Shown here one piece after another: positions 2,659-63,738 of a stretch of DNA of 64,000 nt. A program made the position numbers and the translations under genes. The stretch lies in IMG/VR virus record IMGVR_UViG_3300006217_000024; one strand, 5' to 3'. Positions within the stretch are counted from its first letter, which is position 1; the number at the start of each line of letters is the position of its first letter. The notes below the pieces were generated by a model. It did not search any database. It was given only the letters and a program-made list of their open reading frames with translations, and had not been told where the DNA came from. The stretch comes from an uncultured virus (IMG/VR IMGVR_UViG_3300006217_000024) (taxonomy: Duplodnaviria; Heunggongvirae; Uroviricota; Caudoviricetes).

Positions 2659-3005
2659 GGCTATACGTGATCGGTCCGGTATCGGGGATAAAGAAAAACA
2701 ACCGACCGGCATTCGAGGAGGTTGCGACGGTGCTCATGGCCGAGGGCTATGGCGTTGACATACCGCACAACATAGTCCCGGAATGCGTCGATGATTGGAG
2801 GGGCGCGATGCTCCACTGCCTCCACCATTTGACCATAACGCGCGTCAGATGCGACAAAGGGCATGAGGGCGAGCACACTGGCAACCCTTACATACAGGGT
2901 ATCGCCATGCTGGACGGCTGGGAGAAGTCCAGGGGAGCGCGGATCGAGCATGATCTCGCCGAGGCGCTGGGAATCCCATGTAAGCCGTGGAGAGAATGGC
3001 TGTGA
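2655..3005 (+). CDS. DUF4406-like (nucleoside deoxyribosyltransferase-like) protein
   Basis: LYVIGPVSG...NRPAF and GWEKSRGARIEHDLA motifs; homolog at 43620. Confidence 0.8.
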   Translation: MRLYVIGPVSGIKKNNRPAFEEVATVLMAEGYGVDIPHNIVPECVDDWRGAMLHCLHHLTITRVRCDKGHEGEHTGNPYIQGIAMLDGWEKSRGARIEHDLAEALGIPCKPWREWL

Positions 3006-3024
3006 GCGACACCTAACCCATACT
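3006..3024 (+). promoter_or_regulatory. Candidate late promoter GCGACAC-N7-A-N3-T
   Basis: Same spacing at 3095, 4768, 8509, 8999, 9217, 13079, 22296. Confidence 0.6.
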
Positions 3025-3059
3025 GACACTGCGGTTGGGTACCGTCTCCTTTCTAGGTT

Positions 3060-3090
3060 AGGCCGTCTTTCGGGGCGGCCTTTCCGCTTT
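3060..3090 (+). terminator. Hairpin with TTCG loop, probable intrinsic terminator
   Basis: AGGCCGTCT-TTCG-GGGCGGCCT followed by TTCCGCTTT. Confidence 0.6.
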
Positions 3091-3094
3091 CAGA

Positions 3095-3113
3095 GCGACA
3101 CATTGCGCACTAT
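3095..3113 (+). promoter_or_regulatory. Candidate late promoter for terminase (probably leaderless)
   Basis: GCGACAC-ATTGCG-CACTAT; ATG 8 nt after the -10 element; no clear SD. Confidence 0.6.
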
Positions 3114-3120
3114 CAGGGGC

Positions 3121-4788
3121 ATGTTGACCAACCCCAGACATGAGACCTTCGTGCAGTCGATCATTGGCGGCATGTCACAGCGCAAGGCCTACATAGAGGC
3201 CTATCCCAACGCTGCGAAATGGAAGCCTGAGACCGTGGATTCCAAGGCCTCTCACCTCTTCGCCGAAGATAAGGTTCGGACAAGGTACGAGGAGCTTCAG
3301 GCGGAGACGGCGAAGGATGCCAAGATCTCGCGCGTGAAACTCCTCAAGCGCCTTGATTGCCTTGCTGACAAGTCCGAGCGGGTGATCACGCAGGTATACG
3401 ACGAAGAGGGCCGCATCAATTTCAATGCATCCCAGGCGCTTATATCGGCTACGAAGGAACTGCTTCCCTTCGCTGAGGACGAAGCCGAGGAAAAAAAGCT
3501 TTTCGTAGCAGACTTCGGATTGCTCCTCGCCCCTGACTTCCTGAAGCCCCACCGCATGATCGCACGCCGAGAGGCTGTGGATTTCTGGGCAGGGGGCGGA
3601 CGCGGGTCCATGAAGTCGTCGTGGGCATCCCTTGAAGTCGTGAAGGATATAGAGGAGAACCCCGACCACCACGCCCTCGTGATGATGCGTTACAAGAACC
3701 AGCTACGGGACTCAGCTTACACGCAAGTGGTGTGGGCCATTCAGATCCTAGGCCTTGAAGATGACTACGAGATGCCAGCCTCCACCCTGCGCATCCGAAA
3801 GAAATCCACGGGGCAGCTCATCATTTTCAAAGGTTGCGACAATCCGAACAAGGTAAAGGGTGTCAAGGTCCCATTCGGATACATCGCCATCCTATGGATG
3901 GAAGAGTGCGACATGTTCCGAGGCATGGCCGAAATCCGAAAGGTCCAGCAGTCGGCCATCCGCGGCGGCGATGACTACATCCGTATGTACACCTTCAACC
4001 CTCCACGCTCCAAGCAGTGCTGGATCAATGAGCATGTTCAGGGCCTTAAGGATAGAGGACTACCCTACTTCGAAAGCAATTACCTCCGTGCTCCCGTCGA
4101 ATGGCTAGGTGAGCAGTTCATCGAGGATGCCGAAGAGCTCAAGCGCACAGACCCCCAAGCCTATGAGCATGAGTACATGGGCATTCCCGTGGGTCTTGGC
4201 GGGGATGTGTTCGACCGCTACACCTTCCGAGAGATCACCGATGGCGAGATAGCTGCGTTTGATAACCTCAGATGCGGCCAAGATTTCGGTTGGTTCCCTG
4301 ACCCATGGGCATTCACGATGTCCGAATGGCAGGCCGCCACGCGCACCATCCTCACCTGGTACGAAGACGGCGGGAACAAGCTTCCTCCCAATATCCAGGC
4401 AGAGCGGATCAAGGCCGCGCTCACATGGTCCGATGATGGACGCACCGAGACCTACCACCATGCCCGCGTGCTCTCAGATGATGCCCGAAACGACCTCATA
4501 TCAGCCCAGAGGGATGCCGGTGTCAATGCCAGAGCATCCGAAAAGGGTTTCATGCGCGAGGCATCCTACGAATTCTTGCAGTCATGCACCTGGGTAATAG
4601 ACCCAGTGCGCTGCCCACACCTCGCCAAAGAGGTGCGAGAGATGCAGTACGAGAAGAATGCAGATGACGAATGGCTTAACTCGATTCCGGATGGCAATGA
4701 CCACTGGGTAGATGCCACCCGCTACGCCTTCATGAGAGAGGCCAAGAAGCGCAGAGCCTACCGCGGAGCGACACCTCCGCCAAAGTAG
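3121..4788 (+). CDS. terL: PBSX-family terminase large subunit with N-terminal small-subunit-like domain
   Basis: GGGRGSMKS Walker A, LWMEE Walker B, TFNPP, GQDFG, NDHWVDATRY. Confidence 0.93.
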   Translation: MLTNPRHETFVQSIIGGMSQRKAYIEAYPNAAKWKPETVDSKASHLFAEDKVRTRYEELQAETAKDAKISRVKLLKRLDCLADKSERVITQVYDEEGRINFNASQALISATKELLPFAEDEAEEKKLFVADFGLLLAPDFLKPHRMIARREAVDFWAGGGRGSMKSSWASLEVVKDIEENPDHHALVMMRYKNQLRDSAYTQVVWAIQILGLEDDYEMPASTLRIRKKSTGQLIIFKGCDNPNKVKGVKVPFGYIAILWMEECDMFRGMAEIRKVQQSAIRGGDDYIRMYTFNPPRSKQCWINEHVQGLKDRGLPYFESNYLRAPVEWLGEQFIEDAEELKRTDPQAYEHEYMGIPVGLGGDVFDRYTFREITDGEIAAFDNLRCGQDFGWFPDPWAFTMSEWQAATRTILTWYEDGGNKLPPNIQAERIKAALTWSDDGRTETYHHARVLSDDARNDLISAQRDAGVNARASEKGFMREASYEFLQSCTWVIDPVRCPHLAKEVREMQYEKNADDEWLNSIPDGNDHWVDATRYAFMREAKKRRAYRGATPPPK

Positions 4789-19942: not shown

Positions 19943-20749
19943 ATGCCACACCTGGTCACATCACATCAAGGCGAAGACCATGTTGAATCCTACAATGACC
20001 GACACTACAACGCCGGGCATATCGGCAATGACTCCTATGCCTTCAAGGGTCGTGGGAATTTCGCTTGCTCGATGGTGGATTCGAACACCCTGCGCATCAT
20101 GTCTGGTGATGCTCAGTGTTGCGGAGCTCATTGGTCCATTGATTCTGATTATGAGGAATACACCATCGAGACCGGAACTCCTGGATACAAGCGTACCGAC
20201 CTAGTAGTTGCACACATCGAAACCGCGCCCCAAGAGACCATGGATATCCGTGTGCTCAAGGGCGAGGAGACCACCGGAACGCCCGTCACACCCTCCTATA
20301 TCGAAGGAGATCTGAACGCTGGCGATACTGTGGTGGAAATGCCTCTCTGTAGTGTGGAGCTTAATGGCATCAATCCAGGTCAGCCCAATATGTTGCTTGA
20401 TTTCTTGGTGCCATACAAGGAGTTTTGTGATTCCCTATCACAAAAGATGGAAATAGCCTGCGAGGACGTGATCGTCACCGTGAACCCGGTCACCAACATT
20501 AATAAAACGACCGGGCAACCCAATCCCGTAGTATTACCCTTCAGGAAAGTAACAGCTAGTAACTTCCTCGGTCGCCAGATGTTGAAAGCATGGCCCCGAA
20601 CCACATGGACCCCAGCGGGAGGATCACAGCCTATAGTTACAATGAGCGTAGGCTCGGGCGGTTTTGTATACAACCAGGCAGTTTTCGTTTCTAACCACTC
20701 GCAGCTTTACGAAATCTATGTCCGGGCTTGGTACTTACCGAACAAGTAA
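19943..20749 (+). CDS. Tail fibre/receptor-binding protein: constant N-terminus (163 aa) plus switchable cassette A (105 aa)
   Basis: N-terminus similar to 60067 (HLVT...HV, R-x-DLVV); unrelated after CDSLSQ; crossover core at 20431-20437. Confidence 0.85.
   Translation: MPHLVTSHQGEDHVESYNDRHYNAGHIGNDSYAFKGRGNFACSMVDSNTLRIMSGDAQCCGAHWSIDSDYEEYTIETGTPGYKRTDLVVAHIETAPQETMDIRVLKGEETTGTPVTPSYIEGDLNAGDTVVEMPLCSVELNGINPGQPNMLLDFLVPYKEFCDSLSQKMEIACEDVIVTVNPVTNINKTTGQPNPVVLPFRKVTASNFLGRQMLKAWPRTTWTPAGGSQPIVTMSVGSGGFVYNQAVFVSNHSQLYEIYVRAWYLPNK
20423..20445 (+). repeat. Recombination site S1 (expressed): TTTTGTGA-TTCCCTA-TCACAAAA
   Basis: Perfect 8-bp inverted arms around a 7-bp asymmetric core, in frame as GAT TCC CTA. 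Confidence 0.85.
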
Positions 20750-20767
20750 TTGATCCTATGTAGGCCT

Positions 20768-21067
20768 CTATTGCTTGCCCTGTACAGCAAGTACACCATA
20801 GGCTTGCCAATCGAACTTGCCCGCGTGAGCGAATGCGCCCCCATTGCGCACTTTGACCCGGAAGCCAGTCTCCGTGATGGAAAAGGGCGTGAACTCCATG
20901 TCCTTCGCTGTTTCAGGGGTCATAAGTCCGTCAAATGCGAGGCTAACACTCACTAAAGGAGGGTATCTGTAAGCCTTCGGGAACGATATAACTTCCGACT
21001 CTCTTGTGTTATTGGCTGGACAATCTACCCGGCCTTGGTCTGACTGCCTTCCATCCTGTAATAGGGA
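20768..21067 (-). CDS. Silent tail-fibre cassette B (99 aa, no start codon), H-type-lectin/gp53-like
   Basis: Open from core: SLLQDGRQ...ISFPKAYRYPPLVSVS...ITETGFRVKV...FDWQAYG...KQ*. Confidence 0.8.
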   Translation of the reverse strand, partial: SLLQDGRQSDQGRVDCPANNTRESEVISFPKAYRYPPLVSVSLAFDGLMTPETAKDMEFTPFSITETGFRVKVRNGGAFAHAGKFDWQAYGVLAVQGKQ

Positions 21068-21074
21068 ATAACTA
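21057..21074 (-). repeat. Recombination site S2: TAGTTA-TTCCCTA-TTACA (core 21062-21068)
   Basis: Same core, inverted relative to S1. Confidence 0.85.
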
Positions 21075-21353
21075 ATCTGGGATGAATATTACCCACAACC
21101 GATAGCGCACCACCTGCGAGACTGGAACCCGGATCGTTGCACCATCTCTTAAAGATGCAGCCGCCATAAAGCCGCCGCTGTATGCCATCAGGTCTTCAGA
21201 CTCACATACGGGAACGAAGGTGCCCTTTGCATCCAGGTTCAGCCCTAGATCATTGCGCAGTTGCTCGGGGGAGATGACAACCCTGCTTGTATGAGCTTGA
21301 AACGTTAGGGCATTCGTGTAAAAAGCGACGCGGGTTCGGGTCTGTTCTAGGGA
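21072..21353 (-). CDS. Silent tail-fibre cassette C (93 aa, no start codon; absent from ORF track)
   Basis: Open from core: SLEQTRTRVAFYTNAL...SQVVRYRLWVIFIPD*; stop abuts S2. Confidence 0.8.
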   Translation of the reverse strand, partial: SLEQTRTRVAFYTNALTFQAHTSRVVISPEQLRNDLGLNLDAKGTFVPVCESEDLMAYSGGFMAAASLRDGATIRVPVSQVVRYRLWVIFIPD

Positions 21354-21360
21354 ATAACTA
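21343..21360 (-). repeat. Recombination site S3: TAGTTA-TTCCCTA-GAACA (core 21348-21354)
   Basis: Same core, inverted relative to S1. Confidence 0.85.
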
Positions 21361-21543
21361 CAATGTGCGACTCATTATCGTTTTCCCGTTTTTCTGGATA
21401 GTAATCTGCGCGTATTCGCTTTGCGCCCATAGCTGCCCATACAGGTCTCCGTTTGTTATGCCTATTTGAAAAGCTTTATCAGTCACGGCAAATGTCAGTC
21501 TGCTGAGTTTGCTAATGAGTGTCTGTACTTCTTGCGATAGGGA
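21358..21543 (-). CDS. Silent tail-fibre cassette D (61 aa, no start codon)
   Basis: SLSQEVQTLISK...KTIMSRTL*; begins at core S4, stop abuts S3. Confidence 0.8.
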   Translation of the reverse strand, partial: SLSQEVQTLISKLSRLTFAVTDKAFQIGITNGDLYGQLWAQSEYAQITIQKNGKTIMSRTL

Positions 21544-21550
21544 ATCACGC
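21531..21550 (-). repeat. Recombination site S4: GCGTGA-TTCCCTA-TCGCAAG (core 21538-21544)
   Basis: Same core; the TGA in the arm is the recombinase stop codon. Confidence 0.85.
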
Positions 21551-22255
21551 GGCCATCGGAAGCTCTCTCGCCGGTTGCGGTGCAGGCTGTGGCGGGATGA
21601 TGCCCTTGTACATGTCATCGCAGCTTTTACCAAGCACCAATCGGGCAAGCCTGCGCTGCACCCGTCGCTTGGTCGCAGCAGTGATCTCCATGTAGTATCG
21701 GTAGCAGGTCTGGATATTGCTGTGTCCCATCATCTCAGCCACGTGCTCAATGGCTGCTCCGGCCTTGATCTCTACCGCACCAGTGCGCCAGTCGATGGAT
21801 TCCCAGCTGAGATAGTAGTTCTCGGAGGGACGCAACCCCAAGGCGCTCTGCAGGATTAAGGTCGGTTCAAATAGATGTCCGACAAAGCCGCGGATAAGCT
21901 TTTTCAGGCGACGCTGCGTAAGCGTGTTGAGAGGCTCTTGAGGCTTTTGGGTAATCTCGATCCTCCGTGTGGGGTCTATGGCCTCCAAGCCCTCATCTAT
22001 CGCCCACCGGATGATCTGTCTGAGGCATTTGTACGCCTTCTCTGCGCCTGATGGTCCGCGCAATGGTGTCAACTCGTCAACCCACGCTTGCACATCCTTA
22101 CGCGTGATCTCGCTAACCCTGAGCGCACCCCAGCGTGGCAATACGTGACGGTTGATGGATGACTCGTAGCCGTAAACGGTATCGGGCTTTCTGCGCTCAC
22201 GTTTCTCGGTGAGGTAGTCATTGCAAATCTCGGTGATGGTGCTCAGTTCGTACAT
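21545..22255 (-). CDS. Tyrosine recombinase (shufflon-type invertase candidate) with internal deletion
   Basis: N-terminal core-binding domain, GLRPSE, MGHSNIQTCYRYY; no HxxR segment; AAAGGAGG RBS before ATG 22255. Confidence 0.85.
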   Translation of the reverse strand: MYELSTITEICNDYLTEKRERRKPDTVYGYESSINRHVLPRWGALRVSEITRKDVQAWVDELTPLRGPSGAEKAYKCLRQIIRWAIDEGLEAIDPTRRIEITQKPQEPLNTLTQRRLKKLIRGFVGHLFEPTLILQSALGLRPSENYYLSWESIDWRTGAVEIKAGAAIEHVAEMMGHSNIQTCYRYYMEITAATKRRVQRRLARLVLGKSCDDMYKGIIPPQPAPQPARELPMAA

Positions 22256-22269
22256 AGCTCCTCCTTTGA

Positions 22270-22314
22270 GTGACAGCAGGCGCATCATCTGAGATGCGAC
22301 ATGTGGAGGATTAT
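22270..22314 (+). promoter_or_regulatory. Two tandem late-promoter motifs before holin
   Basis: GTGACAG-CAGGCGC-ATCAT (prophage 2 type) and GCGACAT-GTGGAGG-ATTAT (prophage 1 type). Confidence 0.55.
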
Positions 22315-22342
22315 GTGGCCGTCACGAGCGAAAGGAGAGATT

Positions 22343-22780
22343 GTGGACTGGGTTACAGCAATAGCCTGGCAGCCGATTTTGGTGATAGTCGTGCTGATGG
22401 CGTTCGACATCATCACCGGCTTCGGCGGAGCCGCAAAGGAGGGTGTCATCCAATCAGGCAAGATGCGCGAGGGGCTATGGCATAAAGCGGGATTCCTGGG
22501 GTTGGTCGTCCTTGCGATCATCTGGGAAGTCGCGGTGCTGTGGATCAATTTCGACGCCTATCTAAAGGGCGCGGGCACCATCGTGCCGGAGTTCCCGGCG
22601 GTTTCCGTTGTGTGCGCATTCATAGCCTTGATCGAACTAATAAGCATCGTCGAGAACCTATGCGTACTCAACCCATCGATCGCGACTCTGCCCTTCATAA
22701 AGCAGCTGAAGGCTCACGATCCAGCGGCCCCGGACATCAAGGTCGAGGTTGATGACGGCGACACACGCACAGACGAGTAG
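22343..22780 (+). CDS. Holin (Phage_holin_4_1-like)
   Basis: DIITG...SGKMREGLWHK...ELISIVENL; hydrophobic segments; AAAGGAG RBS before GTG. Confidence 0.9.
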   Translation: MDWVTAIAWQPILVIVVLMAFDIITGFGGAAKEGVIQSGKMREGLWHKAGFLGLVVLAIIWEVAVLWINFDAYLKGAGTIVPEFPAVSVVCAFIALIELISIVENLCVLNPSIATLPFIKQLKAHDPAAPDIKVEVDDGDTRTDE

Positions 22781-23060
22781 CCCTACAGCCAGTCAAGAGC
22801 GGCGCGTGATGCTGATCGCGGCGCTGCTTGCCTTTGGTATGGTGGCCCTTGTCATGGCCATACGCCTCGGGTCGTGGTTTCTCGCGCCCGCTGAGGTGCC
22901 ACCAGAGCCAGAGACGCTCCCTGCTGTTGATCTGCCCCTCCTCACGCCCCTGCAGCGCGAGGAGGCCCGCAGAAGCGGCGTGGGTGCTTATGAGTTTGAC
23001 GGCATGTGGTATGTAAACGCGGCTTTGCCGCCTGAACACTGGGAGGACTGGATTGGCTAA
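22749..23060 (+). CDS. Membrane-anchored protein in lysis module (start uncertain)
   Basis: One hydrophobic segment; lies between holin and endolysin. Confidence 0.55.
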   Translation: MMTATHAQTSSPTASQERRVMLIAALLAFGMVALVMAIRLGSWFLAPAEVPPEPETLPAVDLPLLTPLQREEARRSGVGAYEFDGMWYVNAALPPEHWEDWIG

Positions 23061-23880
23061 GCTATACATCATCTGCGGACATGGTGCCGGTGACCCTGGA
23101 GCCTGTGCTGCAGGACAGACCGAGGCCGACAACGTACGCACGCTAGCGGCACGGATCAAGGAGCTTGGAGGCTCTGAGGTCAACGTCCTGGACACAGGGC
23201 GCAACTGGTATGCCGATGCAGGCATCAACAAGCTGAGCATCTCCAAAGGCTCGGCTCTGCTTGAGTTGCACATGGACTCAGCAGTTGAGACCGCACGGGG
23301 CGGGCATGTCATCATCAAGTCAGGCTATGATGCTGATGACTGGGACAAGGCGCTAGCAGCTGGGATAGCCGCGATTCTGCCCGGGCGTGCTGAGACCATC
23401 GTACATCGCAACAACCTCGCCAACGTCAACCGAGCGGCAGCGCGCGGCATCAACTACCGCCTTCTGGAGACAGGATTCATCAGTAACGAGGATGATCGGA
23501 ATATCTTCAATGACCGCCTTGACGATATCGCACACGTCATCCTGGCATCGTTCGGTATCGGTTCTCATGATGATATCGAGCCGTCTCCGAGCGCACCAGC
23601 CACAGATAGCGACGGCTTCGGTGGCACATACCGCTGCCAGGTCGACGGCTTGCGCGTGCGCACGGGCCCCGGCCTCTCCTACGCCCAGGCTAAGGATGCG
23701 AACGGCAATCTGGTCTGCTACAACAAGGGTGGCGAGGTCATACTGGATGATTGGTTCAGGTCGGCTGACGGCTATATCTGGGGCAGGTATACCGGAGCGC
23801 AAAGCGGCCAGCTGCGATACGTGGCGGTTGGAAAAGCTACCGGCAAGCCGGAGCCTGATGACTTCCTGGTCAAGGTCTAA
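23053..23880 (+). CDS. Endolysin: N-acetylmuramoyl-L-alanine amidase plus SH3-like wall-binding domain
   Basis: GHGAGDPGA, ELHMD, LLETGFISN; C-terminal LRVRTGPG...DGYIWGRY. Confidence 0.92.
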   Translation: MAKLYIICGHGAGDPGACAAGQTEADNVRTLAARIKELGGSEVNVLDTGRNWYADAGINKLSISKGSALLELHMDSAVETARGGHVIIKSGYDADDWDKALAAGIAAILPGRAETIVHRNNLANVNRAAARGINYRLLETGFISNEDDRNIFNDRLDDIAHVILASFGIGSHDDIEPSPSAPATDSDGFGGTYRCQVDGLRVRTGPGLSYAQAKDANGNLVCYNKGGEVILDDWFRSADGYIWGRYTGAQSGQLRYVAVGKATGKPEPDDFLVKV

Positions 23881-23883
23881 GTC

Positions 23884-24691
23884 GTGGCCGCAACACCCAA
23901 AAACCCTACGGCCTTCAATGACTACGAGGGCTTCGTCGAGAAGTTCAAGCCCAAAAAGACCACGGACGATTGCTATACCCCCCCCCCGAGTCTATGACGC
24001 GATTCGCGACTGGGCCTGCGTCGAATACGATATAGACCCCGCGCGGATAGTGCGCCCGTTCTATCCGGGCGGCGACTACGAGCGGTTCGACTACCCCGCA
24101 GACTGTGTGGTCCTAGACAACCCACCCTTCTCGTGCCTCGCAGCCATCAGGCGCTTCTATCAGATGCTTGGTATCGACTACTTTCTTTTCGCCCCGGCAC
24201 TCACCATGCTCTGCAGCAGGGTGGAAGACTGCTGCATCTGCGCTGACGCAAACATCGAATACGAGAACGGCGCCGTGGTTAGAACCGGCTTCGTCACAAA
24301 CCTCGATACTTACGTCTTGCGCACTGCTCCAGGCCTTTATAAAGCAATCGAGGAGGTCAAGCGTGAGATACGTTCGGAACAGAAGAAGCAGCTGCCAAGG
24401 TATGAATACCCGGAAGCCGTCATCACCCCCGCGCTTTGCAACCGATATACAAAGTACGGTATAGACTTCAGGGTGAAACGGGATGAAGCGGTTCGCATCA
24501 GCTCTCTCGATGAACAACGAACGCACAAGAAGGGCATCTTTGGCGGGGGGCTCCTGCTCTCGAAAGAGAAGGCCGCTGAGCGCACCGCCGCCGAACATGC
24601 TGCAGTCGAACGAGCAGCAGCCGAACGTGCCGCCGCGCACACCTGGCACCTCTCAGAGCGCGAGCTCGAGCTGCAGGCGACGCTTGGCTAG
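23884..24691 (+). pseudogene. Putative DNA adenine methyltransferase frameshifted at a C10 tract (23978-23987)
   Basis: Upstream frame ...KKTTDDCYTP; downstream frame PRVYDAIRDW...RPFYPGGDY...DNPPFS; C9 would join them. Confidence 0.75.
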
Positions 24692-24756: not shown

Positions 24757-24783
24757 AGGGTTCGAATCCCTACTCCTCCGCCA
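24757..24783 (+). other. att core: 3' fragment of a tRNA gene (probably Ser) at the prophage junction
   Basis: AGGG-TTCGAAT-CCCTA-CTCCTCC-G-CCA = T arm, acceptor strand, discriminator G, CCA; no 5' half upstream. Confidence 0.85.
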
Positions 24784-24798
24784 TCCTTGATTTTGCAA

Positions 24799-24952: not shown

Positions 24953-26065
24953 TCAGAGGGCCTCGTCGAAGGCCCGGTCTATGAGGGCCGTGTCGCGCTT
25001 CAGGTCTTTCAGACGGGGCTTCACGTAGCGGTTGTAGGTGGTGCTCACATCAGCGTGCCCCATCCACTTGGCGAGCTTGGCCACCTCTATCCCAGCGTCG
25101 ATGCAGGCCGTCCCGAACGAGTGACGCATAGAGAAGATCGTGATGTGCGGAAGGGGCTCTCCGTCATCGAACCTGAGACCGGCGTTGAAGATCTTGTCGA
25201 TGCGCTTGTAGCCCGTCTGGGGCTTCATGCGGCCGCCGTCCCGCCCCTTCACGATAGGCCCGCTCTCCCCCTCTAGAAGCTCCCCCAAGCGCTCGCGCAG
25301 ATAGCGGAACGCTGGGACCTCCCGGAACCCCGCAGGGGTCTTCGGGTCGTCGAGGCCCGCGCCTCCTTCCTTTCGGACGCAGGTCTGCTCCACGCAGAGG
25401 CCCCCGTCCTCCGCGCTCCGCCTCTCGCAGTCCGCGGCGAACACCTCGCCCTTGCGCAGGCCGTAGCCCAGCCCCAGAAGGCAGATGCGCTCCTCAGGCG
25501 TGTCCGGGTAGTGCTCGGCCATGAAGTCCAGGACGCGCTGGATCTCGGCGAAGGTGGACAGCCACGCCCCGCCCTCGTTCTTGGGATGCTTGGTGGCGGC
25601 CGGATAGCGGAAGCGGCAGCTCGCGGGGTTGAACGTGAGCACCTGCATCTCGCAGGCCAAGGAGAAGACGGACGACGCGGTCTCGCGGGCGTTCGTGGCC
25701 ACCTTCTTGGTGGGGCAGCCGTCTATCATCTTCTGCACGTCGAAGCGGTTGATGTCCTCCATGGGCATGGGGCCGAACGCCGGCAGGATGCGGTTGTTCA
25801 GATCCCGCCGGTAGCACCGCTTCGTGTCATAGCGCAAGCCCTCCTTCTGGGGCCAGAAGTACTGCTCGACGAACTCTCCGAAGGGGATGCCGCCGTAGGA
25901 CTTGCCGCGCCGGATCTCCTTGAGCGCCAGGAGACGCCGCTCCTCTTTCTCGGCCTTCGCCTTGGTGCTGAACTGAGGCTGCCGGCGGTCCCTCGTGCCG
26001 TCCAGGCGCTTGCCGAGCGTGACGTCAGCGACCCAGAGGCCGCTCTCCAGCTTCCGCACTGCCAT
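24953..26065 (-). CDS. int: Prophage 2 tyrosine integrase
   Basis: GLRKGE, PKT, SMRHSF, MGHADVSTTYNRY; adjacent to att. Confidence 0.93.
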   Translation of the reverse strand: MAVRKLESGLWVADVTLGKRLDGTRDRRQPQFSTKAKAEKEERRLLALKEIRRGKSYGGIPFGEFVEQYFWPQKEGLRYDTKRCYRRDLNNRILPAFGPMPMEDINRFDVQKMIDGCPTKKVATNARETASSVFSLACEMQVLTFNPASCRFRYPAATKHPKNEGGAWLSTFAEIQRVLDFMAEHYPDTPEERICLLGLGYGLRKGEVFAADCERRSAEDGGLCVEQTCVRKEGGAGLDDPKTPAGFREVPAFRYLRERLGELLEGESGPIVKGRDGGRMKPQTGYKRIDKIFNAGLRFDDGEPLPHITIFSMRHSFGTACIDAGIEVAKLAKWMGHADVSTTYNRYVKPRLKDLKRDTALIDRAFDEAL

Positions 26066-26165: not shown

Positions 26166-27182
26166 TCACGTTGTCAGCTCGCTGAGCACCGCGATCCCCT
26201 CATGCACGCACCCTCTAGACGCGACATTGAGCAACGCGCTCCAATCATCCGGCACGCCTACGACGCGCAGCAGATCACCACGCGCCTCAAGATACGGATC
26301 CACGACCTCCTTCAAGTCGAACCAAAGCCGAAACGAGTACAGCAGGTTCACATCAAGGAATCTGATCCTGGCTGAGAGCAAGCGGCCCAAGATGAACACC
26401 ACGTAGAAGGTCGATCGAGTTTCGGCGTCCAGCCCCCTGATCGCTATAGGAGTGCTCGGGATCTCCTTCCGCACAACATAGGGATCAAAATGAGCACAGG
26501 TATTGCGCACCGATACCACGGTCTTCGTCCAATTGGTGAGTTCCGCACGAGAGACCCCAAAGAAGGCAGCAACGGTATCGCTCACGCCCTCGACCTTGGT
26601 GTTCGAGATCAGCTTGCTCAAGGTTCCCAATGTCATGCATTCGACCGCGTCCCGTACGGGGAGGCGGAAGCCGTCAGCGTCGCTGCGCACAAAACTCCTG
26701 ATAATGGGGTCCTTGCTTCTCTGAGCCTCCCTGCGCAGTGAAGCCATCGAACTCTCATAGTGCCGCGCATTGAAGAAGTTTGCGGCATCATACAGCGCCA
26801 TCTTCCCCGCACGCTCCTCAAGCCAGTGCGCATACTGCGCCCGAAGTTGGCCTTCGAGGATACCGATGTACTTGAACACTACCGCCTGGAAGCGCCTGTC
26901 AAAGGCAAGCAGATCATGGGCGTCTTTGATCATCGGCTTGTCCTGCCCCGAAATGCGCTTTGCTGCGCGGAGGTAAGGCAGCATGTGCCGGTAGCTGACG
27001 CGCTCCAACATGAAGACAGCCTCGACGGTATCCGAATCAGTGAAACCCTGCGACCTGAGCTCGTTCACGAAGCTCTCATAGGATCCAGGGACCGAATAAG
27101 ACACGGCCGAGGGATTTCCACTTGCATTGCTGCTAGAAGTGCCCTCGGCTCTATCGCTGCCTATGTTACCACGGTTCTTCAT
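26166..27182 (-). CDS. Abi family (AbiD/AbiF-like, HEPN) protein
   Basis: LERVSY, FDRRF...IGILE, TLGTLSKL, VRNTCAH (R-x4-H). Confidence 0.85.
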   Translation of the reverse strand: MKNRGNIGSDRAEGTSSSNASGNPSAVSYSVPGSYESFVNELRSQGFTDSDTVEAVFMLERVSYRHMLPYLRAAKRISGQDKPMIKDAHDLLAFDRRFQAVVFKYIGILEGQLRAQYAHWLEERAGKMALYDAANFFNARHYESSMASLRREAQRSKDPIIRSFVRSDADGFRLPVRDAVECMTLGTLSKLISNTKVEGVSDTVAAFFGVSRAELTNWTKTVVSVRNTCAHFDPYVVRKEIPSTPIAIRGLDAETRSTFYVVFILGRLLSARIRFLDVNLLYSFRLWFDLKEVVDPYLEARGDLLRVVGVPDDWSALLNVASRGCVHEGIAVLSELTT

Positions 27183-44307: not shown

Positions 44308-44326
44308 GTGACGCCAGGCGCATCAT
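44308..44326 (+). promoter_or_regulatory. Candidate late promoter for terminase
   Basis: GTGACGC-CAGGCGC-ATCAT; ATG 9 nt downstream without SD. Confidence 0.65.
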
Positions 44327-44334
44327 GTCCAGCC

Positions 44335-46059
44335 ATGAGCACGCCCAAGAAGATGACGCCCAAGCAGTTCGCGTTCGCGGACGGGATCGCGCACGGCAAG
44401 CGCCCGAGCGAGGCCTACCGCGACGCGGGCTACTCATGCGCGCGCATGAGCTCGGATTCCATCGCCACCGAGGCGAAGCGCCTGCAGCAGCATCCGCTCG
44501 TCCGCGCCCACATCGAGCAGGCCGCAGCAGCGGCCAAGGCGGCGGCGCAGTGGAACCTGGACAAGGCCGTGGAGCGGGTGCAGGTGCTCAATGACAAGGC
44601 GCATGAGGAGATCGCCCGCGCCGGGGTCGTGCAGAAGTCGGACGCCTGGAAGGCGCTCATCCAGTCCACCGACCGCCTGAACGCCTACACGGGCGTGGAC
44701 CGCGAGATCGCCAAGCTGGCGGAGGAGCGCGGCGAGGCGTCCGCCCCGCCCATCGACACCGCCTCCCTCGTGCCCGGCTGCTATGCGGACGCTTGGCGCG
44801 ACATCATGGAGGCGCGGCATTCCGAGTACATCGGCGAGAGCGGGCGCGGCTCGCTCAAGTCCACGGTGCTGCTGTCCTTGGCGCCCATCATGCTGATGCT
44901 CAAGGACCCGAAGCTCTGCGGCGTGGCGCTCCGGCGCGTGGGCAACACGCTCAGGGACTCCATCTTCGCCTCCCTCATCTCCGCCATCCGCCGCCTGGGC
45001 GTGGAGGAGCAGTTCGCCTGGAGCGTGTCCCCCATGGAGATCAAGCGGCCAGCAACGGGGCAGACGATCAAGTTCCGCGGCCTCGATGACGAGGAGAAGG
45101 CCAAGTCCCTGGCGCTGGATGACCCGGACCTCTACCTGGGCTTCGCCCTATGGGAGGAGTTCGACCAGCAGAAGGGCGAGCGGGCCGTGAGGCGCGTGGA
45201 GCAGACCATCAAGCGCGGACAGGCTCCGCACTTCTGGACCTTCCGCGCGTTCAACACGCCAGCGGACCCCGACCACTGGGCGCACGCCTACACGGCGCGC
45301 CAGGAAGCGAGCGGAGAGGCGCTGGTGCTGCGCCAGACCTACCGGGATATGCCGCCGGAGTTCCTGGGAGCGGACTTCATCGCCGACGCCGAGCGGTTGC
45401 GCGCCGTGAACGAGGACGCCTATCGCAACGAGTACCTGGGCGAGGCCGTGGGGCTTTCTGGGCGCGTGTTCACCAACGTGGCGGCGGCCGACATCCTGCC
45501 CACCGACGTGGCGGAGATGAAGTGGATCCGGCGCGGCATCGACTGGGGATTCGAGAACGATCCCTTCGTCTTCCTGTCGGTGGGCTACGACCGCAAGACC
45601 TCCACGCTCTACGTGTTCGACGAACTGTTCAACACCCACACGCTGGATCCGGACAACGTGGAGGCGGCGAAGGCCCTCATGGCCGAGCGCGACGGGGACG
45701 GCCAGCCTCTCTCGGACGCGGAGGGCCGCCCCGTCTTCAGGCGCGCCAAGCCTGAGAACGAGGTGCGCGCTGACGCCGCCGGCGCGAAGGACCGCGCCAC
45801 CTGGAGGCATATGGGCGTGAACGTCATGGGAGCGTCCAAGGCGGTGCCCGTGGCCGACGGCATCCGCTGGCTGGCCAAGCGCCACGCCATCGTCATAGAC
45901 CGCAAGCGCTGTCCCCTCGCCTACCAGGAGTTCACGCGCTACCGCGCCCTGGAGGACGACGAGGGGCGCTTCTTGGGCTACCCGGACAAGGACAACCACA
46001 CGATAGACGCCGTGCGCTATGCGGCGTTCGACCTCATAGCGGACCCGGACATCCCCTAA
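44335..46059 (+). CDS. terL: PBSX-family terminase large subunit with N-terminal small-subunit-like domain
   Basis: SGRGSLKS, LWEE, FNTP, GIDWG, DNHTIDAVRY. Confidence 0.93.
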   Translation: MSTPKKMTPKQFAFADGIAHGKRPSEAYRDAGYSCARMSSDSIATEAKRLQQHPLVRAHIEQAAAAAKAAAQWNLDKAVERVQVLNDKAHEEIARAGVVQKSDAWKALIQSTDRLNAYTGVDREIAKLAEERGEASAPPIDTASLVPGCYADAWRDIMEARHSEYIGESGRGSLKSTVLLSLAPIMLMLKDPKLCGVALRRVGNTLRDSIFASLISAIRRLGVEEQFAWSVSPMEIKRPATGQTIKFRGLDDEEKAKSLALDDPDLYLGFALWEEFDQQKGERAVRRVEQTIKRGQAPHFWTFRAFNTPADPDHWAHAYTARQEASGEALVLRQTYRDMPPEFLGADFIADAERLRAVNEDAYRNEYLGEAVGLSGRVFTNVAAADILPTDVAEMKWIRRGIDWGFENDPFVFLSVGYDRKTSTLYVFDELFNTHTLDPDNVEAAKALMAERDGDGQPLSDAEGRPVFRRAKPENEVRADAAGAKDRATWRHMGVNVMGASKAVPVADGIRWLAKRHAIVIDRKRCPLAYQEFTRYRALEDDEGRFLGYPDKDNHTIDAVRYAAFDLIADPDIP

Positions 46060-59833: not shown

Positions 59834-60070
59834 ATGGGTGTTACTTCTGGATACTCAGAGTACGTATGCGAGGGCTGCGACGAGCTGGCCATGATCAAGG
59901 ACGATGACAACACCGCCAAGAACAAGTGGCAGGAGATCGAGCGTGTGACCGCTGATGGGCAGCACATCAAGCGGATGCTGTGCGAGAAGTGCCGCAAGGC
60001 CTACAGCCCCTTTGCTGCTGAACAGGACGCCGCCTTCAACGCCTTCATGGCCTCTCGCAGGAGCGCATGA
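59834..60070 (+). CDS. Small zinc-finger-like protein before tail fibre
   Basis: CEGC...LCEKCRK. Confidence 0.65.
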   Translation: MGVTSGYSEYVCEGCDELAMIKDDDNTAKNKWQEIERVTADGQHIKRMLCEKCRKAYSPFAAEQDAAFNAFMASRRSA

Positions 60071-60918
60071 TGGAGATCGTAACCGGCTTCCAGGGGAAGA
60101 ACCACGTCACCGCCCAGCAGCTCTCTCGCCTGATCTCCGGCTTAGCAGGAGACGAGACCTATGTCCTTGACACGCAGGACCAGCTGGCGATAGAAGTTGT
60201 CTCAGCCAACAAGGTGACCATAGCCACAGGCGATCTGATTGCTCAAGGCACCTACTTCACCAACGAGGCCCCCGAGGATCTGGTGATCGAGAACGGCGTA
60301 ACGGGTCTGAACCGCAACGATCTCATCGTCTGCAGGTACGAGAAGGCGGAACCTGCAGTCGACGAAGATGGGAATCCGGACTACACGATTCCGCGTATCG
60401 AAAGCGGTGACTGGGCTGTGGTGAAAGGCACGCCCTCCTCAGGCACCCCAGAAGACCCGTCGGTCGTCACTGCATCCCTTCAGGATCCGAACACGTCCCT
60501 GGCAGAGTTCCCCGTTTACCGTATTCCGATACGCGGGCTGTCTGTAGGGACACCCGAGCGGATACCCCCGGTGATCCCCTCTATGCGTGAAGCTTGTGAT
60601 TCCCTATCACAAACGCTCGAAGGCACATGGCAGCGCATCTCTGGAGGCAAGGGAAACGGACAGTGGTTCAATAGTCCGCTTCTTGGCGCCACGAAAATCA
60701 TCCTCGCAGTCGAACATGATGCTCACGAGTCATTGATTGTTTGGCGCACGGTCACCCTCGAAGAGCTGGAGCAGGCGAACGCATCAAATCCAGTGGTTGT
60801 ATCATCCTTGATCGAGCCGCAGACCTACTCCATCTCAGCATACATTTCGAATGGAAACATATATGGAAAGAACGCAAATCCGAACTTTGCGACAGTATGG
60901 ATCTATGGACTCGTGTAG
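60067..60918 (+). CDS. Tail fibre/receptor-binding protein: constant N-terminus plus switchable cassette A' (105 aa)
   Basis: Similar to 19943 up to CDSLSQ; core at 60600-60606. Confidence 0.85.
   Translation: MMEIVTGFQGKNHVTAQQLSRLISGLAGDETYVLDTQDQLAIEVVSANKVTIATGDLIAQGTYFTNEAPEDLVIENGVTGLNRNDLIVCRYEKAEPAVDEDGNPDYTIPRIESGDWAVVKGTPSSGTPEDPSVVTASLQDPNTSLAEFPVYRIPIRGLSVGTPERIPPVIPSMREACDSLSQTLEGTWQRISGGKGNGQWFNSPLLGATKIILAVEHDAHESLIVWRTVTLEELEQANASNPVVVSSLIEPQTYSISAYISNGNIYGKNANPNFATVWIYGLV
60594..60612 (+). repeat. Recombination site S1': TTGTGA-TTCCCTA-TCACAA
   Basis: Same core and inverted arms as S1. Confidence 0.85.
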
Positions 60919-61196
60919 ATGGTCATATGGCATAGGGGGATGCAGAGCAGATCAACCGTTGGGCGAACCGTATGCGCGCCGCTTATGAGATTCCTAATAC
61001 GTCCAGATATAGCATTCTCATAGAGAAGACATCTGGTTATCACGGCATCGGCTGAATACGAATCAAACCCCGCGATACCCATTACCCTGTAGTCTTCCTG
61101 GATCTTCGTGATGTCGACGGAAAAGACCTCGGCACCGTTAGGCCTAAGGGCAATATCACCCGCCGCAACACTGATTCTGGTGGACTGTAATAGGGA
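60903..61196 (-). CDS. Silent tail-fibre cassette B' (97 aa, no start codon; absent from ORF track)
   Basis: Open from core: SLLQSTRISVAAGDIAL...VDLLCIPLCHMTIYTSP*. Confidence 0.78.
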   Translation of the reverse strand, partial: SLLQSTRISVAAGDIALRPNGAEVFSVDITKIQEDYRVMGIAGFDSYSADAVITRCLLYENAISGRIRNLISGAHTVRPTVDLLCIPLCHMTIYTSP

Positions 61197-61203
61197 ATAA
61201 CTA
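61185..61203 (-). repeat. Recombination site S2': TAGTTA-TTCCCTA-TTACAG (core 61191-61197)
   Basis: Matches S2 over both arms. Confidence 0.85.
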
Positions 61204-61386
61204 CAATGTGCGACTCATTATCGTTTTCCCGTTTTTCTGGATAGTAATCTGCGCGTATTCGCTTTGCGCCCATAGCTGCCCATACAGGTCTCCGTTTGTT
61301 ATGCCTATTTGAAAAGCTTTATCAGTCACGGCAAATGTCAGTCTGCTGAGTTTGCTAATGAGTGTCTGTACTTCTTGCGATAGGGA
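61201..61386 (-). CDS. Silent tail-fibre cassette D (same as prophage 1)
   Basis: SLSQEVQTL...MSRTL*; core at 61381-61387. Confidence 0.8.
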   Translation of the reverse strand, partial: SLSQEVQTLISKLSRLTFAVTDKAFQIGITNGDLYGQLWAQSEYAQITIQKNGKTIMSRTL

Positions 61387-61387
61387 A

Positions 61388-62098
61388 TCACGCGGCCATC
61401 GGAAGCTCTCTCGCCGGTTGCGGTGCAGGCTGTGGCGGGATGATGCCCTTGTACATGTCATCGCAGCTTTTACCAAGCACCAATCGGGCAAGCCTGCGCT
61501 GCACCCGTCGCTTGGTCGCAGCAGTGATCTCCATGTAGTATCGGTAGCAGGTCTGGATATTGCTGTGTCCCATCATCTCAGCCACGTGCTCAATGGCTGC
61601 TCCGGCCTTGATCTCTACCGCACCAGTGCGCCAGTCGATGGATTCCCAGCTGAGATAGTAGTTCTCGGAGGGACGCAACCCCAAGGCGCTCTGCAGGATT
61701 AAGGTCGGTTCAAATAGATGTCCGACAAAGCCGCGGATAAGCTTTTTCAGGCGACGCTGCGTAAGCGTGTTGAGAGGCTCTTGAGGCTTTTGGGTAATCT
61801 CGATCCTCCGTGTGGGGTCTATGGCCTCCAAGCCCTCATCTATCGCCCACCGGATGATCTGTCTGAGGCATTTGTACGCCTTCTCTGCGCCTGATGGTCC
61901 GCGCAATGGTGTCAACTCGTCAACCCACGCTTGCACATCCTTACGCGTGATCTCGCTAACCCTGAGCGCACCCCAGCGTGGCAATACGTGACGGTTGATG
62001 GATGACTCGTAGCCGTAAACGGTATCGGGCTTTCTGCGCTCACGTTTCTCGGTGAGGTAGTCATTGCAAATCTCGGTGATGGTGCTCAGTTCGTACAT
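61388..62098 (-). CDS. Tyrosine recombinase with internal deletion (same as 21545-22255)
   Basis: Identical translation. Confidence 0.85.
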   Translation of the reverse strand: MYELSTITEICNDYLTEKRERRKPDTVYGYESSINRHVLPRWGALRVSEITRKDVQAWVDELTPLRGPSGAEKAYKCLRQIIRWAIDEGLEAIDPTRRIEITQKPQEPLNTLTQRRLKKLIRGFVGHLFEPTLILQSALGLRPSENYYLSWESIDWRTGAVEIKAGAAIEHVAEMMGHSNIQTCYRYYMEITAATKRRVQRRLARLVLGKSCDDMYKGIIPPQPAPQPARELPMAA

Positions 62099-62185
62099 AG
62101 CTCCTCCTTTGAGTGACAGCAGGCGCATCATCTGAGATGCGACATGTGGAGGATTATGTGGCCGTCACGAGCGAAAGGAGAGATT

Positions 62186-62623
62186 GTGGACTGGGTTACA
62201 GCAATAGCCTGGCAGCCGATTTTGGTGATAGTCGTGCTGATGGCGTTCGACATCATCACCGGCTTCGGCGGAGCCGCAAAGGAGGGTGTCATCCAATCAG
62301 GCAAGATGCGCGAGGGGCTATGGCATAAAGCGGGATTCCTGGGGTTGGTCGTCCTTGCGATCATCTGGGAAGTCGCGGTGCTGTGGATCAATTTCGACGC
62401 CTATCTAAAGGGCGCGGGCACCATCGTGCCGGAGTTCCCGGCGGTTTCCGTTGTGTGCGCATTCATAGCCTTGATCGAACTAATAAGCATCGTCGAGAAC
62501 CTATGCGTACTCAACCCATCGATCGCGACTCTGCCCTTCATAAAGCAGCTGAAGGCTCACGATCCAGCGGCCCCGGACATCAAGGTCGAGGTTGATGACG
62601 GCGACACACGCACAGACGAGTAG
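62186..62623 (+). CDS. Holin
   Basis: Identical to 22343-22780. Confidence 0.9.
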   Translation: MDWVTAIAWQPILVIVVLMAFDIITGFGGAAKEGVIQSGKMREGLWHKAGFLGLVVLAIIWEVAVLWINFDAYLKGAGTIVPEFPAVSVVCAFIALIELISIVENLCVLNPSIATLPFIKQLKAHDPAAPDIKVEVDDGDTRTDE

Positions 62624-62903
62624 CCCTACAGCCAGTCAAGAGCGGCGCGTGATGCTGATCGCGGCGCTGCTTGCCTTTGGTATGGTGGCCCTTGTCATGG
62701 CCATACGCCTCGGGTCGTGGTTTCTCGCGCCCGCTGAGGTGCCACCAGAGCCAGAGACGCTCCCTGCTGTTGATCTGCCCCTCCTCACGCCCCTGCAGCG
62801 CGAGGAGGCCCGCAGAAGCGGCGTGGGTGCTTATGAGTTTGACGGCATGTGGTATGTAAACGCGGCTTTGCCGCCTGAACACTGGGAGGACTGGATTGGC
62901 TAA
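62592..62903 (+). CDS. Membrane-anchored protein in lysis module
   Basis: Identical to 22749-23060. Confidence 0.55.
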   Translation: MMTATHAQTSSPTASQERRVMLIAALLAFGMVALVMAIRLGSWFLAPAEVPPEPETLPAVDLPLLTPLQREEARRSGVGAYEFDGMWYVNAALPPEHWEDWIG

Positions 62904-63738
62904 GCTATACATCATCTGCGGCCATGGAGCAGGGGACCCTGGAGCCTGCGCGGCAGGCCAGACCGAGGAGGAGCGCGTCCGTGCGCTGGCGGCGATCATC
63001 AAAGAGCGCGGCGGCGCGGATGTGGAAGTGCTTGACACATCACGCAACTGGTACGTGGATGGCGGCATCAACAGTCTCACGTTGCCAGAGGGCGCTATGC
63101 TGTTGGAGCTGCATCGTGATTGGGCGGGAGAGAGCGCACGCGGTGCCCACGTGATCATCTATGCGGGCTTCGAGGCCGATGACTTCGATAAAGCCCTGGC
63201 ATCCAAGCTGTCCGCCATCCTTCCGGGACGTTCGCAGACCATCGTGAAGCGCAGCGATCTGGCAAACCCGAAGCGTGCTGCCAGACGCGGCATCAACTAC
63301 CGCCTCGTCGAGGTGGGCTTCATCTCCAACGCTGAAGACCGCAACATTTTCGACACGCGCATCACCGACATCGCTGACGCCATTCTGGCGGCAGCTGACA
63401 TCAGCATCCTGGCAACGAACCCACAGCCTGCTCAACCTGCCCCTACGCCGTCCAGCCCATCGGCATCTAGCTCGGCCGAGAAAGCTGGCTCTGGTTTCGG
63501 CGGCACCTATCGCTGCACCGTCTCCAAGCTCAACGTGCGGGACGCTCCGGGCCTCAGCGGAAACATCGTCACCAGCTATGCCAAGGGACAGACAGTCGTG
63601 CTCGATGATTGGTACGTATCACGAGATGGATACATCTGGGGACGTTACACAGGTGCTCAGAGTGGCAAGTTGCGGTATGTGGCTGTTGGCCGTGCCACCG
63701 GCAAACCAGAGCCGGATGACTATCTGATAAAGGTCTAG
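62896..63738 (+). CDS. Endolysin: amidase plus SH3-like domain
   Basis: GHGAGDPGA, ELHRD, LVEVGFISN, LNVRDAPG; diverges from the prophage 1 copy after about codon 9. Confidence 0.92.
   Translation: MAKLYIICGHGAGDPGACAAGQTEEERVRALAAIIKERGGADVEVLDTSRNWYVDGGINSLTLPEGAMLLELHRDWAGESARGAHVIIYAGFEADDFDKALASKLSAILPGRSQTIVKRSDLANPKRAARRGINYRLVEVGFISNAEDRNIFDTRITDIADAILAAADISILATNPQPAQPAPTPSSPSASSSAEKAGSGFGGTYRCTVSKLNVRDAPGLSGNIVTSYAKGQTVVLDDWYVSRDGYIWGRYTGAQSGKLRYVAVGRATGKPEPDDYLIKV

What the first reader, a model, noticed from the sequence alone, without database searches (positions are those of the whole stretch)
21545..22255. The cassette recombinase lacks the middle of its catalytic domain (switch may be locked)
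Seen: only about 36 residues separate the first catalytic Arg (GLRPSE) from the MGH His, against about 133 in the integrase at 24953. The sequence runs ...IDWRTGAVEIKAGAAIEHVAEMMGH..., with no Lys loop or HxxR box. Known: tyrosine recombinases need R-K-H-R-H/W-Y. Inference: an in-frame deletion of roughly 95 codons near 21760-21780 inactivates it in both prophages, freezing the current tips unless an intact enzyme acts in trans. The truncated protein might still bind sites.
Basis: partly seen in the sequence, partly recalled or inferred. Interest (0 to 1): 0.7.

Follow-up and report, generated by a model that had tools for sequence, protein, structure and literature searches.

The report
Broken phage tail-switch recombinase allele
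A mouse-gut bacteriophage gene for the enzyme predicted to flip tail-tip DNA cassettes has lost 88 codons, including three conserved catalytic residues, so this copy is likely dead; the intact gene is the common form in public data, which makes this most likely ordinary decay of a known kind of switch.

Summary
The deletion is real in the sequence. Gene 21545-22255(-) lacks exactly 264 bp (88 codons, not about 95) against an otherwise identical 324-aa allele. The junction is a 4-bp microhomology (AAGG, 21763-21766). K180, R243 and H244 are lost; R142, H266 and Y275 remain. The gene is a Rin-type tyrosine invertase of a tail-tip shufflon in phages of Eggerthellaceae. The intact allele is on 66 contigs and in 8 of 8 mouse-gut runs laid, with joints at the crossover sites in 6; the 264-bp deletion is on 4 JGI contigs. 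'Both prophages' is not shown: the contig is two excised phage circles joined through one 1,731-bp identical module, likely printed twice by the assembler. Other broken alleles exist: a 327-bp in-frame deletion at about half depth beside an intact copy in 3 runs, a 61-bp frameshifting deletion and two nonsense changes. They keep different parts of the protein, and the phage integrase decays similarly, so neutral loss, likely complemented in trans, fits best. The scan noted this before on the same DNA (e1-7964332); sequence and word look-ups found no note on other DNA. Low interest.

The parts
21545..22255 (-). rin-type tyrosine invertase gene, 264-bp in-frame deletion allele (236 aa; intact allele 324 aa). 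Keeps the core-binding domain, R142, H266 and Y275 (intact numbering); loses residues 165-252 with K180, R243 and H244
21763..21766 (-). deletion junction: exact 4-bp microhomology AAGG within a 9-of-11 imperfect direct repeat
   Evidence: window vs L006
19943..20749 (+). phage B tail-tip gene: 162-aa constant part plus 106-aa active tip (receptor binding inferred)
   Evidence: only unknown-function PHROGs
20427..20437 (+). crossover (rix-like) site inside the phage B tail gene; core TTCCCTA between inverted 8-bp arms
   Evidence: joint 20438>21060 on opposite strands in run X15
20768..21072 (-). silent tip 1 of phage B (100 aa) with its crossover site at 21062-21072
21072..21358 (-). silent tip 2 of phage B (94 aa) with its crossover site at 21348-21358
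21358..21548 (-). silent tip 3, shared by both phages (62 aa); its crossover site at 21538-21548 overlaps the recombinase stop codon
21348..23078 (.). 1,731-bp module (tip 3, recombinase, holin, start of amidase), 100% identical to 61191-62921; the join point of the two phage circles
   Evidence: branching at 23079 in runs X3, X4 and X15
24757..24784 (.). attP core of phage A: 28 bp identical to the 3' end of a host tRNA-Ser(gct)
   Evidence: L040 from G001
24953..26065 (-). phage A integrase, intact; distinct from the invertase
60067..60918 (+). phage A tail-tip gene (177-aa constant part plus 106-aa tip), crossover site at 60596-60606
60903..61201 (-). silent tip of phage A (98 aa) with crossover site at 61191-61201
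61388..62098 (-). second printing of the same deleted recombinase gene, with a crossover site at 61381-61391

Best explanation
The gene is a likely dead allele of a Rin-type tail-tip invertase: it lacks 264 bp in frame, likely lost by slippage between two short imperfect repeats, and with them K180, R243 and H244 and the predicted core of the catalytic domain. The intact enzyme likely inverts DNA between the TTCCCTA site in the tail gene and the opposed sites before each silent tip, which would swap the last 60-106 residues of the tail protein. A phage with only the deleted copy would keep its current tip unless an intact copy is in the same cell. Two phages of one host share this module, so a second copy is likely often at hand and the loss is likely close to neutral. 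The contig is likely an assembly figure-eight of two excised phage genomes of about 39-40 kb, so it cannot show that both carry the deletion. Shown: the deletion, the lost residues, the sites, the in-frame tips, joints at the sites in other samples and the excised attachment cores. Inferred: inactivity, slippage, action in trans, neutrality and the assembly join.
For: Deletion and junction. Lost residues are conserved: K180 in 141, R243 in 138 and H244 in 137 of 144 homologs. The intact model (pLDDT 92.5) puts three beta strands (166-189) and helices 192-204, 218-231 and 239-252 in the deleted span, and it matches Tn1549 integrase, XerA and lambda integrase. The intact allele (at least 99.6% identical) is on 66 contigs: P0129 61, P0128 2, and P0001, P0139 and P0141 one each. 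The 264-bp junction is on 4 contigs: P0121, P0123, P0124 and P0126. All 8 runs laid (of 18 holders, 6 studies) hold the missing segment, and 6 of them (X1, X3, X8, X10, X15, X18) show joints or loose ends at the sites. Three of the 8 (X3, X15, X18; 2 studies) also hold a different 327-bp deletion, with the intact middle at about half the depth of its flanks: 20.2 vs 38.5-41.3, 15.4 vs 26-34.9, and 16.3 vs 34.1-38.8. Broken alleles keep different parts: the 264-bp deletion keeps R142 and loses R243/H244, the 327-bp deletion does the reverse, and there are also a 61-bp frameshifting deletion, G67* and E204*. The phage A integrase has frameshifted alleles too: P0283 on 8 contigs, and P0196. Figure-eight: the circles are 39,843 bp (GC 0.63) and 39,149 bp (GC 0.545), each with its own terminase, tape measure and integrase, and both att cores are unsplit. 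L001, L002 and L006 link the tail at 19-21 kb to the genes at 63-66 kb, not as in the window.
Against: No enzyme assay exists. No reads of the window's own sample were available, and none of the 8 runs shows the 264-bp junction among the rows listed (tables were cut, and contigs drop rare variants). All 4 contigs with this junction come from one source collection (JGI/IMG) and may not be independent. Both private changes in the gene in L002 are nonsense (chance about 0.006 for G>T changes), which fits selection against the enzyme better than drift, or else a mosaic consensus or damage. Contig depth is not copy number, so 'one of two copies' is a reading of rough figures. At least four distinct broken alleles in a nearly invariant gene is not a small number.
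Confidence: 0.8

Rival explanations
1. Both phages in the source sample really carry the deletion (the module was copied between them after the loss), so both switches are frozen there.
For: The contig shows no trace of the intact path. The module is shared by both phages in other samples too (branch at 23079 in X3, X4 and X15), so it moves between them. A 264-bp bubble is too large for ordinary bulge removal (own knowledge of de Bruijn assemblers).
Against: A collapsed repeat is printed identically on both passes, and a low-coverage intact path can be pruned. In 3 runs with both alleles the broken one is about half. All four combinations of G67* and the 264-bp deletion occur among contigs, which points to mixed populations.
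Confidence: 0.35
2. Null alleles are selected: in a gut with one fixed host strain, switching wastes progeny on wrong tips or excises cassettes, so phages that lose or halve the invertase gain.
For: Three different deletions and two nonsense changes occur in one nearly invariant gene. The 327-bp allele recurs in two studies. Joints that skip cassettes between direct sites (286 and 190 bp) occur in runs with the intact enzyme.
Against: Intact alleles dominate (66 contigs; 8 of 8 runs). The integrase control is broken at a similar order of frequency. In the family, none of 30 genome loci has an internal gap over 7 residues, and 26 of 30 viral records show no break in the matched span. The 327-bp deletion uses the best repeat in the gene (12 of 13), so recurrence needs no selection. 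The skip joints can also reflect the second phage's cassette order.
Confidence: 0.2
3. The junction is a library artefact (template switching during amplification) or an assembly error.
For: It has microhomology, is seen only in JGI/IMG contigs, and is absent from the rows listed for 8 runs. These contigs also carry private single-base changes.
Against: Four bases of exact homology cannot collapse a k-mer graph (the contig's terminal overlap is 77 bp). The same junction stands in 4 contigs that differ in private changes. A comparable natural deletion in the same gene reaches about half depth in other studies.
Confidence: 0.08
4. The 236-aa protein is a functional blocker: it binds the crossover sites through its core-binding domain and damps an intact enzyme.
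For: The frame is kept. The N-terminal domain (PF14659, PF22022) and the C-terminal 72 residues remain, in the 327-bp allele as well.
Against: Good repeats in this gene are biased to be in frame (34 of 63 pairs at 9-of-11, and all 5 windows at 11-of-13). Out-of-frame and nonsense alleles also exist. No relative shows a conserved short form. The remnant catalytic domain has lost its predicted core.
Confidence: 0.07

Closest known systems
Rin shufflon of Bifidobacterium breve/longum prophages (Mavrich et al. 2018, PMC6109161; section 8 read whole, plus passages)
   Same: Armless tyrosine recombinase beside small variable tip cassettes and a constant tail gene. The crossover core shares TTCCCTA with the published TTCCCTAACCC. 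The constant part is 162-177 aa (168 published) and the tips are 13-22% alike (6-30% published). The paper's methods note a premature stop in one rin allele (mutation or sequencing error).
   Different: Host family Eggerthellaceae. The sites have inverted arms around the core. In the window's arrangement no site follows the 3' end of the tail gene. The allele is broken by an internal deletion. The module is shared by two unrelated phages. The Bifidobacterium Rin protein itself was not compared.
Rin shufflon of Eggerthella lenta clade 1 prophages (PMC8778435; passages read)
   Same: Same host family and layout. Homologs at 51-57% identity to the intact allele sit beside ATTCCGTA repeats (L020, L023, L052, L054, L060), matching the published site ttccgtat.
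   Different: Site core TTCCCTA rather than TTCCGTA. Tips were not shown to be H-type lectins (no Pfam hit for either tail gene). 'truncat' has no occurrence in that paper's main text.
Tyrosine recombinases with the RKHRH pentad and tyrosine nucleophile (PMC8138268; passages read); solved relatives XerA 4A8E, Tn1549 integrase 6EMZ
   Same: The intact allele has the core-binding plus catalytic fold and R142, K180, R243, H244, H266 and Y275.
   Different: The first His slot holds K or R in 117 of 144 homologs. The window allele lacks K180 and the second Arg box.

Membership tests
Rin shufflon (phage tyrosine-invertase tail-tip switch) | Armless tyrosine recombinase, distinct from the phage integrase, flanking the cassettes | tested here: met
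   The intact allele starts at the core-binding domain. Separate integrases lie at 24953 and 66071.
Rin shufflon (phage tyrosine-invertase tail-tip switch) | Short asymmetric site inside the constant gene and, inverted, before each variable cassette; rare elsewhere | tested here: met
   7 matches to GTKATTCCCTA, all in the two cassettes; 0.02 expected.
Rin shufflon (phage tyrosine-invertase tail-tip switch) | Variable cassettes in frame with the constant part and unlike each other | tested here: met
   Tips of 62-106 aa open from the core in the tail gene's frame, 13-22% alike.
Rin shufflon (phage tyrosine-invertase tail-tip switch) | Rearranged variants with breakpoints at the sites | tested here: met
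   Joints or loose ends at the sites in X1, X3, X8, X10, X15 and X18, all of which hold the intact gene. Not testable for the window's own sample.
Rin shufflon (phage tyrosine-invertase tail-tip switch) | The rearranged gene is the receptor-binding protein | tested here: inconclusive
   Last gene of the tail module, but no Pfam hit and only unknown-function PHROGs.
Rin shufflon (phage tyrosine-invertase tail-tip switch) | Recombinase groups with the published Rin proteins | tested here: inconclusive
   Homologs at 51-57% identity lie beside the published E. lenta site. No published Rin sequence was fetched and no tree was built.
Active tyrosine recombinase (window allele) | First catalytic Arg, last His and Tyr nucleophile | tested here: met
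   R142, H266 and Y275 (intact numbering) are retained.
Active tyrosine recombinase (window allele) | Catalytic Lys and second Arg box | tested here: not met
   K180, R243 and H244 are deleted; conserved in 137-141 of 144 homologs.
Active tyrosine recombinase (window allele) | DNA cleavage and strand exchange | not testable with these tools
   Needs an assay.

The most novel reading that the evidence does not exclude
Two co-resident gut phages share one invertase and one pool of tail tips, and the invertase is knocked out again and again (264-bp, 327-bp and 61-bp deletions, two nonsense changes) because locking a winning tip, or halving enzyme dose in double lysogens, is selected in the mouse gut. 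The switch would then be tuned by losing its own enzyme and borrowing the partner phage's.
Probability: 0.2. Interest if true: 0.55.

Novelty: new member of a known kind. Interest (0 to 1): 0.22.

Why it matters
As it stands this is a broken allele of a described system, useful mainly as a warning that a repeat printed twice in an assembly is one observation. It does supply natural null and intact alleles, with defined sites, for a phage invertase whose activity was inferred from genomes in the two papers read. If null alleles proved to be selected in the gut, it would give a direct test of when bet-hedging over host range stops paying for a temperate phage.

Tried and rejected
Short active family form: rejected, since spacing is 123-125 in 135 of 137 homologs. 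Intact paralog in G000: none found. In G001 there is one match, and it is intact. Single-sequence fold of the intact protein failed (pLDDT 39); the alignment-based fold worked. The deleted protein was not folded. A degenerate pattern gave 2 viral records, both already held, and 1 distant metagenome contig. Phage A tail searches gave nothing in viral contigs or in 339 family genomes, so phage A's own linkage was not seen in a fetched locus. Assigning the 327-bp deletion to phage A or B from contig depth was dropped, because the three runs disagree. Six literature searches listed no paper on deleted or locked rin alleles beyond the stop-codon remark in PMC6109161; only listings were seen for papers other than the four opened, and no supplements were opened. 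No complex prediction was run, as no protein-protein claim is made. Scan look-ups by sequence and by words returned nothing.

Full report
Observation. The gene at 21545-22255 on the minus strand encodes 236 aa. R142 of GLRPSE is 36 residues from the His of MGH, against 133 in the integrase at 24953. A homolog search returned 176 proteins, the best a 324-aa protein 99% identical over the aligned part. An identical-sequence intact gene lies in a MAG titled uncultured Eggerthellaceae bacterium (L006). Against it the window gene is 711 rather than 975 nt: one clean 264-bp in-frame gap with 4 bp of exact homology (AAGG, 21763-21766) inside a 9-of-11 imperfect repeat.

What is lost. Among 144 cluster representatives, R142 is present in 141, K180 in 141, R243 in 138, H244 in 137, H266 in 140 and Y275 in 132. 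The Arg-to-His spacing is 123-125 in 135 of the 137 that have both residues. Residues 165-252, with K180, R243 and H244, are deleted. This family has (K/R)NLRH where the textbook has HxxR; weaker conservation of that first His is described for another subgroup (PMC8138268, passages). The same paper names the RKHRH pentad and the tyrosine as catalytic. Calling Y275 the nucleophile rests on its spacing from H266 (own knowledge), and Y276 is also conserved. A model of the intact protein from a 109-sequence alignment (pLDDT 92.5) places three strands and three helices of the catalytic domain in the deleted span. It matches Tn1549 integrase, XerA and lambda integrase. Inactivity is an inference, but a strong one.

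The system. Seven copies of GTKATTCCCTA occur in the window, with 0.02 expected. One lies inside each of two tail-tip genes, and the others lie in opposite orientation before silent tips that read in the same frame and are 13-22% alike. One site overlaps the recombinase stop codon. This is the layout of the Rin shufflon (PMC6109161, section 8 read whole; published site TTCCCTAACCC), also described in E. lenta prophages (PMC8778435, passages). Homologs at 51-57% identity sit beside ATTCCGTA repeats that match the E. lenta site. The Bifidobacterium paper already notes one rin with a premature stop.

'Both prophages'. G000 is one 79,069-bp contig with a 77-bp terminal repeat. The two gene copies lie in a 1,731-bp run with no difference, 21348-23078 and 61191-62921, that starts at a crossover site. 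Cutting there gives circles of 39,843 bp (GC 0.63) and 39,149 bp (GC 0.545) with almost nothing else in common. Each has its own terminase and tape measure and its own integrase. Their attachment cores match the 3' ends of two tRNA-Ser genes about 5 kb apart in G001 and are unsplit here, so both are in the excised form. L001, L002 and L006 join the tail at 19-21 kb to the genes at 63-66 kb, the linkage of one circle and not that of the window. Runs X3, X4 and X15 show both exits at 23079, so the sharing of the module is real. The join is most simply an assembly figure-eight. A collapsed repeat is printed twice, so the second copy adds nothing.

How common the deletion is. The intact allele at 99.6% identity or more stands on 66 contigs (15 of 16 cluster members were listed). 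The 264-bp junction stands on 4, all JGI/IMG, of 79,069, 38,690, 6,006 and 2,202 bp. Eighteen public runs in 6 studies hold the region: 14 are labelled mouse gut or mouse metagenome and 4 carry a coded organism name. I laid 8, covering all 6 studies. All 8 contain the missing segment and none shows the 264-bp junction among the listed rows. Those tables were cut (9 and 1 loose ends, 37 and 43 pieces not shown), and contigs drop rare variants. Six of the 8 show joints or loose ends at the crossover sites, including an inversion of 20438-21060 in X15 and phage A's constant part joined to the shared tip in X8 and X18.

Other broken alleles. P0012 is the same gene with a 327-bp in-frame deletion at the gene's best repeat (12 of 13). 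Its junction appears in X3, X15 and X18, where the intact middle has about half the depth of the flanks. This suggests one broken and one intact copy, though depth is not copy number. P0127 implies a 61-bp frameshifting deletion. G67* is on 3 contigs, and L002 carries both G67* and E204*. The two in-frame deletions keep opposite halves of the active site, which argues against a conserved short product. Against drift, both private changes in the gene in L002 are nonsense (chance about 0.006). For drift, the phage A integrase has frameshifted alleles on 8 contigs against about 115 intact ones listed (15 of 31 members shown), plus a second frameshifted cluster. Across the family, 36 of 339 genomes match. 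Of the 30 loci examined, none has an internal gap over 7 residues, one is frameshifted, one lacks its 5' half and one is cut by a contig end. Of 30 viral records (31 loci), 26 show no break in the matched span; the other four are this deletion, L002's stops and two frameshifted relatives.

Mechanism and odds. Most likely (0.8) this is a dead allele made by slippage at a short repeat, carried by at least the dominant phage in the source sample and tolerated because a second phage in the same host usually supplies the same enzyme. That both phages in that sample carry it is open (0.35). Selection for locking gets 0.2, artefact 0.08 and a functional blocker 0.07; these are not all exclusive.

Verdict. 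It is a new member of a known kind, in a broken state. An earlier follow-up on the other printing of this DNA reached the same view that the enzyme is likely dead, which is not independent support. Interest 0.22.

Noticed in passing
window 23978-23987: A run of 10 C breaks the frame of the gene after phage A's amidase (PHROG 21498, NPPF motif, possibly a DNA methyltransferase; that label is recalled). Runs X3 and X4 have one base fewer, which joins the upstream and downstream frames. Possible slipped-strand on/off switch or assembly error.
   Followed up: partly
window 24757-24784 and G000 65894-65955; G001:C20 (L040): The two phages target neighbouring tRNA-Ser genes, (gct) and (tga), about 5 kb apart in one host. 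In G001 phage B is integrated and phage A's genes were not found; a 21-bp second copy of A's core lies about 200 bp away.
   Followed up: partly
window 21062-21348 (L006 7294-7420): Silent tip 2 occurs as two alleles differing at 4 bases in X4, X8, X10, X15 and X18, and phage A sequence abuts several phage B sites, suggesting tips are held by both phages.
   Followed up: partly
window 19943-20749 (P0175): A 186-aa allele of the phage B tail gene on 4 Logan contigs is frameshifted at the crossover site, as if the palindromic site had been partly lost.
   Followed up: no
window 21348-23078: A diverged 319-aa intact invertase (P0132) shares a longest-contig length of 39,002 bp with phage A's integrase, amidase and the holin, hinting that phage A elsewhere has its own version of the module. 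Inferred from equal lengths only.
   Followed up: no
L010-L039, L049-L076: Rin-type cassettes are widespread in this host family with varied site cores (ATTCCATA, ATTCGCTG, ATTCCGTA, ATTCCTTA, ATTGCTTG); L050 and L070 have 8-9 sites.
   Followed up: no
window 26166-27182: Phage A carries an Abi_2 (Abi-like) gene between integrase and repressor.
   Followed up: no
window 2863-4788 and 44308-46059: In both phages, small-subunit and large-subunit terminase profiles hit one open frame, suggesting fused terminases.
   Followed up: no
L009 3938-4810: Bifidobacterium phage PMBT6 has a 290-aa gene annotated as integrase among its tail genes, 34% identical to the intact allele; it may be a Rin-type invertase.
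   Followed up: no
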